Source of the DNA: a virus
Taxonomy: Duplodnaviria; Caudoviricetes
DNA length: 64,000 bases
IMG/VR virus record: IMGVR_UViG_3300021124_000003
Location: 1-64,000 of that record
Reading direction: 5' to 3' (one strand)
Shown: positions 54,802 through 59,242 of the stretch, one piece after another
How the letters are laid out: every line of letters begins with the position of its first letter
Position numbering within the stretch: position 1 is the first letter of the stretch
Made by a program: the position numbers and the translations under genes
Notes under the pieces: model-generated
What the model was told of the DNA's origin: nothing
Database searches by the model: none
The model's input: only the letters and a program-made list of their open reading frames with translations

Positions 54802-54964
54802 ACGCACACAGAGTCTTCGCACATGGCCGATATTCTTCTTCTGCGAAGAGGTCGAGCGTGAGCGGGAGATGCGCGACGCGCCAAGAGGCGGGCAGCACGT
54901 AGCGGGGTGGCTTTGCCCAATGATTCTCGCTAGCCCCCGAATTGCTGGGCAGCTTGCGGAATCA

Positions 54965-55249
54965 TTAGGCAGCCGCGTCAATCTCCTTCCTGTGCCCGCA
55001 GTGGGGGCACGTCCCGGCGGCTGGGTACTTGCCGGCCAGCAGCTCGTCGACACCGACCTCGGCCAGACGTGCGACACGGAACGCCATGCTGGCGCTCGGC
55101 GCTCGCTCCGTACCGATCTTTGCCAGGTACGTCGCCTTGAAGCGGAGCGCTCGTGCTAGTGGCGCCCAGCCACCGCAGCGCATCCGAAGGAAGCGAAGGG
55201 CGGCACGCACGTTCGCCTGCTCGGCCGTGGTCAAGTCGGAGGCGTTCAC
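54965..55249 (-). CDS. XRE-like HTH regulator with C-terminal CPHC
   Basis: WAPLARALRFKATYL...RVARLAEVGVDELL; overlaps the transposase stop. Confidence 0.75.
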   Translation of the reverse strand: MNASDLTTAEQANVRAALRFLRMRCGGWAPLARALRFKATYLAKIGTERAPSASMAFRVARLAEVGVDELLAGKYPAAGTCPHCGHRKEIDAAA

Positions 55250-56499
55250 GCGGCCCCCTGGAACATCGGCTCGTCGATCCCGAGTTCATACATGGCGTGC
55301 ACCAGGACCGTGAGGTTGTAGCAGAGCATCTTGCACAGCACTTCGTTGACCTGGGCGACCGGGCACTTGCTGCGCACCGACCCGCCGAGCAGGCGCTTGA
55401 TCGCGGAGAACGCCGTCTCGACGTTCGACCGTCGGTGGTAGTGCGCGAGGAACTCGTCGTGGCGGTAGAGGAACAAGCCCCACAGGCGCCGCCAAGCGGC
55501 GGGACCGGCGGCCTTGCTATTCGACTTGAACGGGATGTATGGGATGGCGCCGACCGCTTCGATCGCCGTCAGGTTGGCGCGGCTCAGGTACGCCTTGTCG
55601 GCCGACACCTCGGCGAGCGCGAAGCGCTGGGCCGTACTCGACACGAGCGCGGGCAGCTCCGGGCAGTCGTTCGACGTGCTGTCCGTCACGCGGACCGCCG
55701 TAACGATGTTGGTAGTGACGCCCACGCAGGCGTGCGCCTTGACCCAGCCGTGCTCCTTCATCTCGCGCCCGTACTTGTGGTCGTACCAGCGGTGGTACGT
55801 GGCGGTGCCGAAGCCCGTGGAGTCAACGGCGAACGCCGTCTCGATGGCGGCCAACGGGGAGGCGCTCTCCTCGATGAGCGCGGTCAGGAGCGGCGTCATG
55901 TCGGCCCGCTCCATGTAGTTGAAGAGGCTGTTGTAGTGGGGCGCCCGCTCAATCTGCCCCCTGGCGGCACACTCGCGGATGTCCGTGGTAGCTCGGCGAC
56001 CCGAGACGGTCGTGTAGACCTTCATCGCCATCCCGAATACGGCGTCCGACAACGCGATCGGCTTCGGGCCGCGTCCGGGGTGCGGCGGGTTCACGATGCC
56101 GTCGCAGAGGTTGCGCAAGAGCGCCTGCACGATGGCCTTCTCGTTACACTGCGCGGCGTTGTAGTTCGGCCAGTCCTGCACGTACGTCTTGCGCGTGACC
56201 TTCACGGACTGCGTGACCACGGTCGTCCCGTCGGGCGCCGTCTCGGTGGTCTGCGAGAACTCGACGGCCCACAGGTGCTTGCACTTCGTCCGGCGCAGTT
56301 CGTGGTCCGGGCACGTGCACGTCGCGGCCAGCGTGTTGACGATGTAGCCGCCAGCGTTCGCTTGCGAGGGCACCGTCCAGGTCGACCCTGAGATGCGCTT
56401 GATCCGCCGGTCGTTGGCGAGCGCACGGCCGCGCTCCTGCCGCACCACGTGCCCCTCGGCCGTCACTTCCAAGGGAGCGGTCGTCTCTCCGTTGTTCAT
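55246..56499 (-). CDS. Transposase, DDE (IS4/IS5-superfamily-like) with N-terminal SWIM zinc finger
   Basis: SWIM: CTCPDH...KCKHLWAV. Catalytic core: FAVDSTG, VSADKAY, YHRRSNVETAFSAIK. Start placed at ATG 56499. Confidence 0.9.
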   Translation of the reverse strand: MNNGETTAPLEVTAEGHVVRQERGRALANDRRIKRISGSTWTVPSQANAGGYIVNTLAATCTCPDHELRRTKCKHLWAVEFSQTTETAPDGTTVVTQSVKVTRKTYVQDWPNYNAAQCNEKAIVQALLRNLCDGIVNPPHPGRGPKPIALSDAVFGMAMKVYTTVSGRRATTDIRECAARGQIERAPHYNSLFNYMERADMTPLLTALIEESASPLAAIETAFAVDSTGFGTATYHRWYDHKYGREMKEHGWVKAHACVGVTTNIVTAVRVTDSTSNDCPELPALVSSTAQRFALAEVSADKAYLSRANLTAIEAVGAIPYIPFKSNSKAAGPAAWRRLWGLFLYRHDEFLAHYHRRSNVETAFSAIKRLLGGSVRSKCPVAQVNEVLCKMLCYNLTVLVHAMYELGIDEPMFQGAA

Positions 56500-56506
56500 G
56501 ATGAGT

Positions 56507-56535
56507 ATATTACTACTAGGTATACCCTTCGTCAA
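56507..56535 (-). promoter_or_regulatory. Sigma70-type promoter for the transposase (leaderless)
   Basis: TTGACG, 17-bp spacer, TAATAT; ATG 7 nt downstream. Confidence 0.7.
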
Positions 56536-56797: not shown

Positions 56798-56881
56798 GCA
56801 ACAGAACAGCAGGCTTCTTGTGGGGGAGTCCTGTGGAGAACGTTGTTGGTTCAGGTGTGGGGATGATGGGGAGAGATCGAC

Positions 56882-58057
56882 ATGGGAACCGCTGAGAAAA
56901 CGTGCGAGGCGCTCTCGCCACCTGGTCAGCTCCACCTGATCGTCAACGAGCCGGTGACGCCCAACGCCGACACATGGGTCGTTGACGAGCGCGTTGACGT
57001 CAGCCGTGGTCGCGGTCTCACAGCGATTGGCAGGGGGCTCGCAGGCGCGACGACTCTCGTCACGGACAGGGCCATCGTCGCGCGCGGCGACTCACTCCAA
57101 CTACTCAAGTTGGTCCCAAGCGCCTCGGTGTCGCTGATCCTGACCGACCCCCCGTACCACTCCACGAAGAAGGCCAACATTTACGGGGACAAGTCATTCG
57201 CAGAAGACCGCGAGTACATCTCGTGGATGCGCGGATTCGGTGCAGAGTGGCAGCGTATTCTCAAGCCCAACGGCGCCCTGTACGTCTTCTGCGCCACTGC
57301 TATGTCAGCTCAACTTGAGGTAATGCTGAGCGAGTTCCTCAAGCCGCTGAACCACATCACGTGGACGAAGCCGAACGAGCCCGGGTTCGACGGCTGGAAG
57401 GGAAAGATGTCGAAGGAGTCGCTTCGACGCTGGTACCCGCATTCTGAGCGTGTGCTCTTCCTGGAGCAAGCGACAGGGGGCGATGGGCGAAGGTCGACGC
57501 TCGGGCAGTTCCTCCGCGAGAGACGCCTCGTCTCCAAGCTGTCTGGTCACCGCGTAACAGAGTTGACCGGCGAGTACGGCGCCGTGAATCACGGCGGCGC
57601 GATCTCGAATTGGGAGACTGGTCGCAACATCCCAAGCCGCGAGCAATATCGAAAGTTCGCTGAGGTCTTGGAGGCCACGGGGAAGGTAAAGACCATGCCT
57701 GCCTACGAGGACGTCGTGCGGCCGTTCAACATGTCGGGCGACCTTGAGTACACGGATGTATGGACGTTCCCGTCGGTGCGTCCGTACGAGGGCAAGCACC
57801 CGGCAGAGAAGCCGATCGATATGCTCTGTCACGCGATTGAAGCGTCGACTTATCCAGGTGACATTGTACTCGACTGCTTCGCCGGTTCTGGCGCGACGGC
57901 CGTCGCTGCGCTGGCATCTAACCGGCGGACCGTCGCCATCGAGATCGAGGAGGTGTGGGCTCGTAGAGTGACTGAGCGCGTGTCCTCTTCCGAGGACGCC
58001 GCGCCGGAGAAGAGGTCACGGCGTAAGCCAGCGCGGACTCAGGGGCGCCTGTTCTAA
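56882..58057 (+). CDS. Beta-class N6/N4 DNA methyltransferase with inserted XRE-type HTH
   Basis: LILTDPPY (motif IV) precedes HPAEKP and VLDCFAGSG (motif I); internal LRERR...ISNWETGRNIPS HTH. Confidence 0.93.
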   Translation: MGTAEKTCEALSPPGQLHLIVNEPVTPNADTWVVDERVDVSRGRGLTAIGRGLAGATTLVTDRAIVARGDSLQLLKLVPSASVSLILTDPPYHSTKKANIYGDKSFAEDREYISWMRGFGAEWQRILKPNGALYVFCATAMSAQLEVMLSEFLKPLNHITWTKPNEPGFDGWKGKMSKESLRRWYPHSERVLFLEQATGGDGRRSTLGQFLRERRLVSKLSGHRVTELTGEYGAVNHGGAISNWETGRNIPSREQYRKFAEVLEATGKVKTMPAYEDVVRPFNMSGDLEYTDVWTFPSVRPYEGKHPAEKPIDMLCHAIEASTYPGDIVLDCFAGSGATAVAALASNRRTVAIEIEEVWARRVTERVSSSEDAAPEKRSRRKPARTQGRLF

Positions 58058-59019
58058 TCGACGATCTTGTTGCGTCTGAGGACTTTGTGCATCCACTCAA
58101 GCGTCTCAGTGATCCCGGAGTCTTTGACCACCACGTTGCAGTGGTGGTGCCCCCACCCGAGGTTGTGCGGCTTGTGGTTCGACTTGCCCACCCGAAGCTC
58201 CTGCAAGTGGAACAGGCTGGCCTCCGTAACGGCTTGGTCAAGAGTCGCGCGTCCAGCCGCCTGCGTGATCCGCGTGAGAAGCGCCGTGGCGGACATCTCT
58301 TCGAGGCAGAGCGGGCACGTCGTCACCCCCTGCGCATCCACCACGCGGAGGTCGGCCAGTCGCGCGAGATCCAAGAGCTTGCCGATACGTGCCGCGTCGA
58401 GGACAGCGTCGCGGCGAAGTTTCGCGTCACGAGCCGTCATCCCAGACGCCACGGCCGTGTCTATCGCGTTCTTGCACAGCCAGAACAGGGCCTCCAACTG
58501 CGTGCGGCAAGCGTTGACGTTCGCGGTCGAAGCGTACTCGTACACGCGGATCCCAGCGCCCTTCGAGCTAGTCGTCGTGAAGCCCGCGAGCACCTTCTCA
58601 CGCCCTTCCGCCGTAGTGCCGGAGATCCGCGCGATGTAGGACCCGCCAAGCGGAGGGCGCCGCCTCGTGGCGACCTCCCACCCTCGCAGAGTCGGGTCGT
58701 TTGCCTCCCATTGGTCGCGCGTCTCGTAGAAGACCAGCGCATTCTGACCGAGCGTAAGCCCTCGCTGCGCAAGTTCATTGTCAGGGTTGACGGTGCCGAA
58801 GTACCACGCGGGCTCTACGAGGACGATGTACCCGTTTTCGTACGCGGCCGATCCGTCGTCTGGGATGGTGCAGCCCTCCCACTGCCCGAGTGGAATCAGC
58901 ACCGTACTGTAGCGAGCCACCCGATTCTGGAACACCTCATCGTCGTCGGCACCGCGCGTCTGTCCCGTCTTGTAAATTTTGGTTTTGAGGAGTTTGGGAA
59001 GGTTCGGAAGTCTGGCCAC
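58054..59019 (-). CDS. BstXI-family restriction endonuclease
   Basis: N-terminus LPKLLKTKIYKTGQTRGADDD..FQNRV..YSTVLIP, recognised from memory as the BstXI family; C-terminal CPLC...HL.EL...HKPHNLGWGHHHCN HNH-type site. Confidence 0.8.
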   Translation of the reverse strand: MARLPNLPKLLKTKIYKTGQTRGADDDEVFQNRVARYSTVLIPLGQWEGCTIPDDGSAAYENGYIVLVEPAWYFGTVNPDNELAQRGLTLGQNALVFYETRDQWEANDPTLRGWEVATRRRPPLGGSYIARISGTTAEGREKVLAGFTTTSSKGAGIRVYEYASTANVNACRTQLEALFWLCKNAIDTAVASGMTARDAKLRRDAVLDAARIGKLLDLARLADLRVVDAQGVTTCPLCLEEMSATALLTRITQAAGRATLDQAVTEASLFHLQELRVGKSNHKPHNLGWGHHHCNVVVKDSGITETLEWMHKVLRRNKIVD

Positions 59020-59242
59020 GCCGCGAAGCGTGCCGATGTGGGATACGGTAGGCCAAGTTCATTGGTCTACGCACCGCGCAATTATTGGGCAGCGAGGCGA
59101 ATTGCTGGGCAGGCGGGAATCATTGGGCAAAGCCTAGCGGGGTCACATTCATACTTCTCTGGTGTGCCGCCGCACGCTTTCACGCGGCTTGAGTGGTGGG
59201 CGCGTGAGTTCCGCAGTATTCTCGGCGAAAAGGAGTAGGTGC

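What the first reader, a model, noticed from the sequence alone, without database searches (positions are those of the whole stretch)
54900..59143. Recently inserted transposon delivering a complete BstXI-like restriction-modification system into a phage
Seen: near-perfect 22-bp terminal repeats, a perfect 9-bp target duplication, and a phage ORF restored exactly by removing the element. The contents are an HTH regulator, a SWIM-DDE transposase, a zinc-ribbon protein, a methyltransferase and a convergent endonuclease. It is a single-transposase unit carrying cargo, not an IS-flanked composite. Known: R-M pairs are addictive and defensive. Inference: a little-described family of SWIM-DDE cargo transposons that move defence genes; here it could arm the prophage against competitors or stabilise it.
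Basis: partly seen in the sequence, partly recalled or inferred. Interest (0 to 1): 0.8.

Follow-up and report, generated by a model that had tools for sequence, protein, structure and literature searches.

The report
Restriction-modification cargo transposon in a phage
A 4.2-kb jumping gene carrying a complete DNA-cutting and DNA-marking enzyme pair sits intact inside a small gene of a 97-kb freshwater phage. It belongs to a large family of gene-carrying transposons, related to IS903, that I could not find described.

Summary
Window 54909-59134 is a 4,226-bp element with 22-bp terminal inverted repeats (1 mismatch) and a perfect 9-bp duplication, TAGCGGGGT.

It holds, left to right:
- an Xre-type HTH gene
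- one SWIM-finger DDE transposase
- a divergent zinc-ribbon gene
- a beta-class DNA methyltransferase
- a convergent BstXI-family endonuclease

The same junctions occur in independent assemblies and in runs from 2012 and 2016.

The ends (GGCTTTG...) and the 9-bp duplication are the hallmarks of IS903. The transposase is only 24% identical to IS903B and scores below NCBI's cut-off.

I delimited 49 other elements (2.5-9.3 kb) by the same ends and duplication. They have a conserved asymmetric end layout and diverse cargo, often methyltransferases, restriction-modification parts or toxin-antitoxin genes.

- HTH and zinc-ribbon genes are transposon core, not cargo.
- Only the endonuclease is BstXI-like; true BstXI uses a type I-like methylase.
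- No integrase was found, so "prophage" is unsupported.
- No empty site or homologue of the restored ORF was found.
- CCAN6TGG is not depleted.

This scan has met the family before on other DNA. My literature searches found no description.

The parts
54900..54908 (.). Left copy of the 9-bp target-site duplication, TAGCGGGGT
   Evidence: Identical to 59135-59143 and directly abuts the TIR.
54909..54930 (+). Terminal inverted repeat at the transposase-side end (GGCTTTGCCCAATGATTCTCGC)
   Evidence: Matches the reverse complement of 59113-59134 at 21 of 22 positions. It shares 13 of 18 bases and the GGCTTTG start with the IS903B IR.
54914..54971 (.). Three 13-bp repeats (GAATnnTTGGGCA type) at 54914-26 (-), 54939-51 (+) and 54959-71 (+). 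The terminal copy is inverted relative to the two inner ones.
   Evidence: All six copies with at most 1 mismatch in the 64 kb lie in the two ends. The offsets 6/31/51 are conserved across the family.
54965..55249 (-). orf94: an Xre-type helix-turn-helix protein with a C-terminal CPxCG knuckle. It overlaps the transposase stop by 4 nt.
   Evidence: Found downstream of the transposase in 26 other loci, mostly Myxococcota, whatever the cargo. The profile hits PDB Xre/Cro regulators at E 8.7e-5. The AF2 model has pLDDT 86.8 and its top Foldseek rows are Xre-family HTH proteins, though none reaches E 0.001.
55246..56499 (-). Transposase of 417 aa: an N-terminal SWIM zinc finger (CxC...CxH) joined to an IS903-like DDE core
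   Evidence: Pfam PF01609 E 3.9e-22 and PF04434 E 1e-4. NCBIfam IS5_2 scores 126 bits against a cut-off of 140. 24% identity to IS903B, E 3e-13. D226, D301, E361, the Y354-R357-E361-K368 signature and C61/C63/C73/H75 are invariant in 24 homologues. GC3 is 0.91, against about 0.6 in phage genes.
56507..56535 (-). Sigma-70-like promoter match (TTGACG-17-TAATAT) just upstream of the transposase ATG
   Evidence: The only promoter-like match in 54300-59500. It is a consensus match only.
56612..56797 (+). Zinc-ribbon protein of 61 aa (CxxC...CxxC), transcribed divergently from the transposase
   Evidence: Weak Pfam Zn_ribbon_8 hit. Homologues lie at the same place and orientation, about 100-250 bp upstream of the transposase, in about 45 other loci across phyla.
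56882..58057 (+). DNA methyltransferase of 391 aa. It is beta-class: DPPY comes before FxGxG. An HTH_31 segment is embedded in it.
   Evidence: PF01555 E 6.7e-39 and HTH_31 E 1.8e-6. It is 77% identical to the partner methylase of the closest REase homologue.
58054..59019 (-). BstXI-family type II restriction endonuclease of 321 aa, convergent with the methylase with a 4-nt overlap
   Evidence: PF09552 E 6.9e-104, covering 2-290 of 290 profile positions. There are 1836 homologues and the closest is 74% identical.
59079..59129 (+). Three direct 13-bp repeats at 59079-91, 59099-111 and 59117-129, at the cargo-side end
   Evidence: The offsets 6/24/44 from the tip recur in most family members.
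59113..59134 (-). Terminal inverted repeat at the cargo-side end
59135..59143 (.). Right copy of the target-site duplication, TAGCGGGGT
54794..54908 (+). 5' part of the interrupted phage ORF. Its 3' part is 59144-59238. After excision it reads as 68 codons.
   Evidence: It has an SD-like site and a start that overlaps the upstream stop. It has no homologue.

Best explanation
This is an intact unit transposon of a large lineage related to IS903 (IS5 family).

Core module. The core is a DDE transposase with an added N-terminal SWIM zinc finger and a small zinc-ribbon gene transcribed divergently from it. In the Myxococcota-centred clade there is also a translationally coupled Xre-type HTH gene.

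Ends. The two ends are functionally different. The cargo-side end has three direct 13-bp sites. The transposase-side end has one terminal site plus two inverted sites. I infer that these are transposase-binding sites that build an asymmetric transpososome.

Movement. By analogy with IS903, the element moves by DDE-catalysed excision and insertion with 9-bp staggered target cuts. Repair of those cuts produces the TAGCGGGGT duplication.

Cargo. The slot between the zinc-ribbon gene and the cargo-side end holds a captured type II restriction-modification module. It consists of a BstXI-family endonuclease and a convergent beta-class methyltransferase that is probably N6-adenine specific. This pair also occurs outside transposons.

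Host genome. The element inserted into a small ORF at the start of the rightward early operon of a roughly 97-kb freshwater phage. It most probably did so while that phage replicated in a host, probably a member of Myxococcota/Polyangia, that carried a related element.

Inferred effect, not shown. The methylase marks phage DNA. The endonuclease cuts unmarked DNA, whether from the host or from competing phages. If the phage can persist as a plasmid, the pair could also act as an addiction module.
For: Structure:
- TIR and TSD; a single transposase and a single TIR pair.
- Intact catalytic and zinc-finger residues.

The junctions are real:
- Identical junctions in the ENA 96.9-kb contig, Logan contigs and the IMG/VR record.
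- Element and flanks at 100% identity in four runs from 2012 and 2016, with one contig bridging the right junction.

Link to IS903:
- The best curated model, NF033579, is the one IS903B itself hits at 353 bits.
- 24% identity over 334 aa.
- IS903B has GGCTTTGTTGAATAAATC ends and a 9-bp TSD.

Family:
- More than 4000 homologues.
- 49 further elements of 2.5-9.3 kb delimited by GGCTTTGC-type TIRs plus a 9-bp TSD, perfect in 46 and with one mismatch in 3.
- Zinc ribbon conserved across the family and orf94 conserved within one clade.
- Conserved asymmetric end layout.
- Cargo tally: 13 DNA methyltransferases, type I S and HsdR-N parts, PemK, SocA, NYN and P63C.

The R-M pair is a pre-existing module:
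- The same convergent pair occurs in L104 (REase 74%, MTase 77%), L106/L107 and L108 without transposon ends.
- Nucleotide homology to L104 is confined to 56804-56861 and 57005-58985.

Foreign origin:
- Element GC is 63.7% against 58.3% for the rest. Transposase GC3 is 0.91.
- The closest transposases are in Polyangiaceae/Polyangia MAGs at 65-74%.
Against: - No empty-site sequence was found and no run showed a joined form, so neither mobility nor recency is shown directly.
- The interrupted ORF has no homologue. The insertion could in effect be intergenic.
- No donor copy closer than 78% transposase identity was found.
- The REase has no upstream C-protein, unlike L106/L107, and lies only 115 bp from the element tip. 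Its expression is therefore uncertain.
- CCAN6TGG is not depleted in the phage: 11 sites against 16.2 +/- 3.9 expected. This neither supports nor excludes BstXI specificity.
- No activity of any protein was tested.
Confidence: 0.75

Rival explanations
1. Pure hitch-hiker. The element is real and the R-M pair serves the transposon itself, through post-segregational killing that stabilises it in bacterial genomes. In the phage it is a neutral or mildly harmful passenger with no role in phage competition.
For: - The family carries R-M, methylase and toxin-antitoxin cargo in bacterial chromosomes at 1-2 copies per genome. That fits selfish stabilisation.
- The insertion interrupts an early operon and places the transposase and REase antisense to it.
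- There is no CCAN6TGG avoidance in the phage.
Against: - The insertion persists at 100% identity in samples four years apart, although phages tolerate IS insertions poorly (PMC3429520).
- All five genes are intact.
Confidence: 0.3
2. Old, fixed and no longer mobile. The element inserted long ago in this phage lineage, and the R-M module has been domesticated as a phage gene set.
For: - No empty site in any collection or run.
- The element is fixed in all holders of the phage.
- No close donor copy was found.
Against: - Perfect 9-bp TSD, identical 18-bp termini, all six subterminal sites within 1 mismatch, and an intact transposase.
- Transposase GC3 of 0.91 lies outside the range of all phage ORFs, so it has not ameliorated.
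Confidence: 0.15
3. Assembly chimera or host contamination. The transposon belongs to a bacterial genome and was joined to phage DNA by the assembler.
For: The composition differs from the phage. The records are metagenomic.
Against: - The 9-bp target duplication flanks the element within phage sequence on both sides, and removing the element gives one continuous frame.
- Junctions are identical in separate assemblies, and another sample has a bridging contig.
Confidence: 0.02

Closest known systems
IS903 / IS903B (IS5 family, IS903 group)
   Same: - DDE transposase with the same core motifs, best matched by the same NCBIfam model, NF033579.
- Termini begin GGCTTTG (13 of 18 IR bases shared).
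- 9-bp target duplication.
   Different: - Only 24% identity, and the score (126) is below the model cut-off (140).
- About 100 extra N-terminal residues, including a SWIM finger.
- A conserved divergent zinc-ribbon gene, plus an HTH gene in this clade.
- Three binding-site-like repeats per end in an asymmetric layout.
- 2.5-9.3 kb with cargo, instead of about 1.05 kb with one ORF.
BstXI restriction-modification system (Bacillus strain X1)
   Same: The endonuclease is a full-length member of Pfam RE_BstXI. The DPPY motif predicts an adenine methylase, and M.BstXI makes m6A (PMC4335341).
   Different: BstXI's methylase is a type I-like enzyme made of separate M and S subunits (PMC4335341, PMC3874165). 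Here, and in three related loci, the partner is a single beta-class PF01555 methylase with an embedded HTH. The recognition sequence is unknown.
Cargo-carrying unit transposons such as Tn7-like elements with defence cargo (recalled from memory, not tested)
   Same: One transposition module, asymmetric multi-site ends, and variable passenger genes rich in defence functions.
   Different: There are no TnsABC-type proteins, no resolvase and no att-site targeting. A single IS903-like DDE protein does the job.
Phage-borne R-M systems, such as EcoP1I of phage P1 and the R-M pairs of chlorella viruses (recalled from memory)
   Same: A virus genome that encodes both a methylase and a nuclease.
   Different: Here the vehicle that delivered the pair is still visible and intact, with TIRs, TSD and transposase.

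Membership tests
IS5 family, IS903 group | Transposase reaches the curated score of NCBIfam NF033579 (transpos_IS5_2), the model IS903B hits | tested here: not met
   126.3 bits against a cut-off of 140. IS903B scores 353 bits.
IS5 family, IS903 group | DDE triad and the Y-2-R-3-E-6-K signature | tested here: met
   D226, D301, E361 and Y354/R357/E361/K368 are invariant in 24 homologues. They align with the IS903B motifs.
IS5 family, IS903 group | 9-bp target-site duplication and IRs that begin GGC | tested here: met
   TAGCGGGGT x2 and GGCTTTGCCC.... IS903B has GGCTACCAG x2 and GGCTTTGTTG.... 49 relatives show the same.
IS5 family, IS903 group | Simple IS of about 1 kb with a single ORF and single 18-bp IRs | tested here: not met
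   4,226 bp with five ORFs and three repeats per end. The smallest relative found is 2,464 bp.
BstXI R-M system | Endonuclease of family RE_BstXI | tested here: met
   PF09552 E 6.9e-104, full length.
BstXI R-M system | Type I-like methylase made of M and S subunits | tested here: not met
   A single PF01555 beta-class methylase, with no N6_Mtase or Methylase_S gene in the element. The prototype is described in PMC4335341.
BstXI R-M system | Recognition of CCANNNNNNTGG | not testable with these tools
   The site count (11 against 16.2 +/- 3.9 expected) is uninformative.
Composite (IS-flanked) transposon | Two IS copies that bracket the cargo | tested here: not met
   One transposase gene and one TIR pair in the record.
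Mutator/MULE-type (SWIM-bearing) transposases | MULE-type catalytic domain | tested here: not met
   The catalytic domain is DDE_Tnp_1. No MULE family was reported.
Tn3-family or Tn7-like unit transposons | Tn3-type transposase with a resolvase, or TnsA/B/C proteins | tested here: not met
   No such Pfam or NCBIfam hits in the element. No resolvase in the record.

The most novel reading that the evidence does not exclude
The element represents an uncatalogued, cross-phylum superfamily of IS903-derived cargo transposons. Its features are a SWIM-finger transposase, a zinc-ribbon partner and conserved asymmetric three-site ends. On this reading the family acts as a general shuttle for R-M and other defence genes between bacteria and the phages that infect them, and this locus has caught it arming a phage that shows no integrase with a working restriction system.
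Probability: 0.35. Interest if true: 0.8.

Novelty: new variant of a known kind. Interest (0 to 1): 0.6.

Why it matters
Transposable elements are reported to be poorly tolerated in phage genomes (PMC3429520), and how phages acquire complete R-M systems is seldom visible. Here the delivery vehicle is still intact. That gives a concrete route by which defence genes pass from bacterial genomes into a phage.

At family level, three things are testable and do not appear in the curated IS models I could query:
- an IS903-like transposase that has gained a SWIM finger
- a conserved zinc-ribbon partner
- left and right ends with different multi-site layouts

The family could also be useful as a compact, single-transposase system for carrying cargo.

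Tried and rejected
- Empty site. An exact 22-mer spanning the predicted empty site gave 0 hits in viral contigs and in metagenome contigs. The restored 68-aa ORF has no homologue. The two flanking phage proteins have no relatives in IMG/VR.
- Reads. Contigs of four runs showed no joined form and no loose ends. Cover in X3-X5 is patchy at 2-5x, so gaps mean nothing. One X4 contig stops at 54909, which I attribute to low depth and not to a branch.
- Near-identical copies. Megablast of the element found nothing in the phage and plasmid collections.
- Donor. No transposase above 78% identity. In 201 genomes of the Polyangia-containing class, 14 carry 1-2 copies and the best is 73%.
- BstXI site avoidance. 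Not seen.
- orf94 as an R-M controller protein. Rejected, because it travels with the transposase regardless of cargo.
- Integrated prophage. No integrase or resolvase found.
- L007, which has the closest transposase (78%) and lies in another phage-like contig. It has matching ends 5.1 kb apart but no 9-bp duplication, so I did not count it as a clean element.
- One genome search failed on a wrong handle.
- Literature. Five searches found no paper on a prokaryotic SWIM plus DDE_Tnp_1 transposase or on IS903-like cargo elements. ISfinder and TnCentral could not be queried.

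
Full report
**1. What is in the sequence**

A 22-bp inverted repeat lies at 54909-54930 and 59113-59134. It has one mismatch, at position 19, and the first 18 bases, GGCTTTGCCCAATGATTC, are identical. It is bracketed directly by two copies of TAGCGGGGT, at 54900-54908 and 59135-59143. My rough estimate is that such a combination would occur by chance in 64 kb fewer than 1e-8 times.

The element is 4,226 bp. Its GC content is 63.7%, against 58.3% for the rest of the record.

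The element's genes are as follows:

| Coordinates | Strand | Product |
|---|---|---|
| 54965-55249 | - | 94-aa protein (orf94) |
| 55246-56499 | - | 417-aa transposase: SWIM finger (PF04434) plus DDE_Tnp_1 (PF01609) |
| 56612-56797 | + | 61-aa zinc-ribbon protein |
| 56882-58057 | + | 391-aa N6_N4 methyltransferase with an embedded HTH_31 segment |
| 58054-59019 | - | 321-aa endonuclease, matching Pfam RE_BstXI end to end at E 7e-104 |

The methylase and endonuclease genes converge and overlap by 4 nt. The record holds one transposase copy and one TIR pair. It is therefore a unit element and not an IS-flanked composite.

**2. Is the insertion real, and where is it**

The window comes from an IMG/VR virus record of 72.8 kb, estimated at 77% complete. 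It encodes a large terminase and a helicase, and most of its proteins are orphans.

The same phage with the same element and the same junctions appears in an ENA contig of 96.9 kb and in Logan contigs. Contigs of four runs, from freshwater and freshwater sediment in 2012 and 2016, match both the flanks and the element at 100% identity. A 453-nt contig from a different sample bridges the right junction. An assembly chimera is therefore very unlikely.

Removing the element and one duplication copy gives a 68-codon frame:
- It starts at GTG 54794, which overlaps the stop of the upstream gene and is preceded by AAAGGA.
- It ends 4 nt before the next ATG at 59243.

That packing looks like a real small gene at the head of the long rightward operon. 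The protein has no homologue, however, so "ORF restored" remains plausible but uncorroborated.

I found no empty site:
- Exact scans of the viral and metagenome collections gave nothing.
- The flanking proteins have no IMG/VR relatives.
- No joined form appeared in the runs.

**3. What kind of transposon it is**

*Link to IS903.* The best curated match of the transposase is NCBIfam transpos_IS5_2, at 126 bits against a cut-off of 140. That is the model IS903B itself hits at 353 bits. In the plasmid collection the nearest annotated proteins are IS903B, ISSod12 and ISVa2, at 24-27% identity. The pairwise alignment with IS903B covers residues 89-395 at 24% identity, E 3e-13, and includes the WPxYN, DSTG, SADxAY and YxRRSxxE motifs.

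I read an IS903B copy directly. Its ends are GGCTTTGTTGAATAAATC and it is flanked by a 9-bp duplication. The element here shares the GGCTTTG start, 13 of 18 IR bases and the 9-bp duplication.

The first 90 or so residues, with the CxC...CxH SWIM finger, have no counterpart in IS903B. In 24 homologues the finger residues are invariant, as are the DDE triad (D226, D301, E361) and Y354-R357-E361-K368.

*The family.* It has more than 4000 members at the 90% cluster level. The closest named relatives, at 65-74%, are in Polyangiaceae, Polyangia and Myxococcota MAGs. More distant ones are in Acidobacteriota, Chloroflexota, Planctomycetota and Alphaproteobacteria.

In the fetched loci I could delimit 49 further elements by a GGCTTTGC-type TIR pair plus a 9-bp duplication (perfect in 46, one mismatch in 3). 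They measure 2.5-9.3 kb and none is a bare IS. Six of them lie in other IMG/VR contigs.

- A homologue of the zinc-ribbon gene sits divergently upstream of the transposase across the whole family.
- orf94 sits directly downstream in 26 other loci, mostly Myxococcota, whatever the cargo.

Both are therefore core genes and not cargo. The orf94 profile hits Xre/Cro regulators in the PDB (YbaQ, E 8.7e-5). Its AF2 model (pLDDT 86.8) has ClgR, C.BclI, HigA and SinR as its top Foldseek rows, at TM 0.5-0.7 with high match probability, though no row reaches E 0.001. "HTH regulator" is thus supported, as a transposon regulator.

*The ends.* The two ends are not equivalent. All six copies of a 13-bp motif (GAATnnTTGGGCA, at most 1 mismatch) in the 64 kb lie in the ends.
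- The cargo-side end has three direct copies, at offsets 6, 24 and 44 from the tip.
- The transposase-side end has the terminal copy plus two inverted copies, at offsets 31 and 51.

The same offsets recur in most of the 49 relatives, down to 48% transposase identity. I infer that these are transposase-binding sites that define distinct left and right ends. IS903 has nothing of the kind.

*Cargo.* Cargo sits mainly between the zinc-ribbon gene and the cargo-side end, and sometimes downstream of the transposase. It is very diverse. Most of the 194 candidate ORFs in the cargo regions are singletons.

A Pfam tally of the 149 candidate cargo ORFs of at least 100 aa (the window's own excluded) gives the following:

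| Pfam family | Count |
|---|---|
| N6_Mtase | 7 |
| N6_N4_Mtase | 5 |
| C5 methylase | 1 |
| Methylase_S | 2 |
| HSDR_N_2 | 1 |
| P63C | 5 |
| NYN | 3 |
| PemK | 2 |
| SocA | 1 |

PADLOC gives matching methylase hits. None of the other elements carries a BstXI-family endonuclease.

In 201 genomes of the Polyangia-containing class, 14 carry the transposase, at 1-2 copies each. That pattern fits a cargo transposon better than an expanding IS.

**4. The cargo here**

The prototype BstXI endonuclease works with a type I-like methylase built from M and S subunits, which makes CC(m6A)N6TGG (PMC4335341, PMC3874165). Here the partner is a single beta-class enzyme: DPPY comes before FxGxG, and from general knowledge of these motifs it is probably an adenine methylase.

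This pairing is not an accident of the transposon. The closest endonuclease homologues are all convergent with a PF01555 methylase that overlaps their 3' end. They are L104 (74%), L106/L107 (58%) and L108 (58%). The methylases co-vary with them, at 77%, 58% and 60%.

- None of those loci has transposon ends.
- L106/L107 also carry a C-protein gene upstream of the endonuclease, which is missing here.
- Nucleotide homology to L104 is limited to 56804-56861 and 57005-58985. The captured module therefore fills the slot between the zinc-ribbon gene and the end repeats.

The recognition site cannot be inferred. CCAN6TGG occurs 11 times, against 16.2 +/- 3.9 expected, which is not informative.

**5. 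The phage and what the system may do for it**

I found no integrase or resolvase in the record. I then walked the 96.9-kb contig from about 3.4 kb up to the element's position. That stretch shows:
- a family A DNA polymerase
- a primase-like gene with an intein
- a DNA ligase
- SbcCD-like nucleases
- a MoxR/VWA pair
- a PG-binding lysin candidate

It shows no recombinase. "Prophage" is therefore not supported. The phage does have a canonical parS (TGTTTCACGTGAAACA in a 36-bp palindrome) and a ParB_N protein, so a plasmid-like carrier state cannot be excluded.

In the present orientation the phage's rightward operon would read in sense through the zinc-ribbon and methylase genes, and in antisense through orf94, the transposase and the endonuclease. 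A sigma-70-like promoter match precedes the transposase.

The following is inferred and not shown:
- Early methylation of phage DNA.
- Restriction of unmodified host or competitor DNA.
- An addiction effect, if the phage persists as a plasmid.

The simpler rival is that the pair serves the transposon and is just a tolerated passenger.

**6. Recency**

For a recent insertion:
- a perfect duplication
- identical 18-bp tips
- six near-perfect end sites
- an intact transposase
- a transposase GC3 of 0.91, outside the range of all phage ORFs, which are typically about 0.6 and at most 0.82

Against:
- no empty site
- no close donor
- the insertion is present in every run that I laid on the stretch, from 2012 and 2016

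I read it as young in evolutionary terms, but already fixed in the sampled population.

**7. Novelty**

Five full-text searches found nothing on prokaryotic SWIM plus DDE_Tnp_1 transposases or on IS903-like cargo elements. NCBI's curated IS models do not capture the transposase. I could not query ISfinder or TnCentral.

Earlier notes of this scan report the same family on many other genomes, including phage-like DNA, and likewise call it undescribed. I reached the IS903 link before reading those notes. I tested the zinc-ribbon partner and the asymmetric ends myself.

Against the literature, this is a new variant of a known kind: a DDE unit transposon of IS903 ancestry. Within this scan it is one more member. 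Its added interest is that the copy is intact, has a clean target duplication, and sits in a phage for which I found no integrase.

Noticed in passing
Loci L052, L064, L067, L071, L078, L081, L083, L084, L089, L097 (insertion sites): About 10 of 49 family members are inserted at the centre of CCCTCTCC...GGAGAGGG-type hairpins. Over all sites, the left half of the 9-bp target is C-rich and the right half G-rich. This suggests a symmetric target preference.
   Followed up: partly
L013, L014, L017 (IMGVR_UViG_3300037083_000054, 122.8 kb): One IMG/VR contig carries three different SWIM-DDE transposase genes, 46-50% identical to the query. Only L017 was delimited with a clean TIR and TSD.
   Followed up: partly
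L007:7406-12506: The closest transposase (78%) lies in another phage-like contig with an exonuclease/AAA_24 gene and a PAPS_reduct gene. Matching ends lie 5.1 kb apart and enclose unknown 279-aa and 334-aa cargo genes downstream of the HTH gene. There is no 9-bp duplication.
   Followed up: partly
window 1 (= end of ENA contig k141_25550): By my arithmetic, the 96.9-kb ENA contig ends exactly at window position 1, where the sequence starts with a run of nine C. This is either a physical genome end or a shared assembly break.
   Followed up: no
L103:1-451 (ENA contig, outside the window): A 1197-aa DUF3854 primase-like gene with a Hom_end_hint intein signature, next to a 1252-aa UDG/exonuclease/DNA polymerase A fusion.
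   Followed up: no
window 63859-63894 and 3081-3713(-): A canonical parS, TGTTTCACGTGAAACA, centred in a 36-bp palindrome, and a 210-aa ParB_N-domain protein near the terminase. These bear on whether the phage can persist as a plasmid.
   Followed up: partly
L069 and L074 (insertion sites): The flank of each element runs straight into another GGCTTTGC-type end. These elements are therefore adjacent to, or nested with, a second family member.
   Followed up: no
L106:5786-6004 and L107:932-1150: In a non-transposon context, the same REase/beta-methylase pair has a 72-aa HTH_3/HTH_31 controller-type gene overlapping the REase start. That gene is absent from the transposon-borne copy.
   Followed up: no
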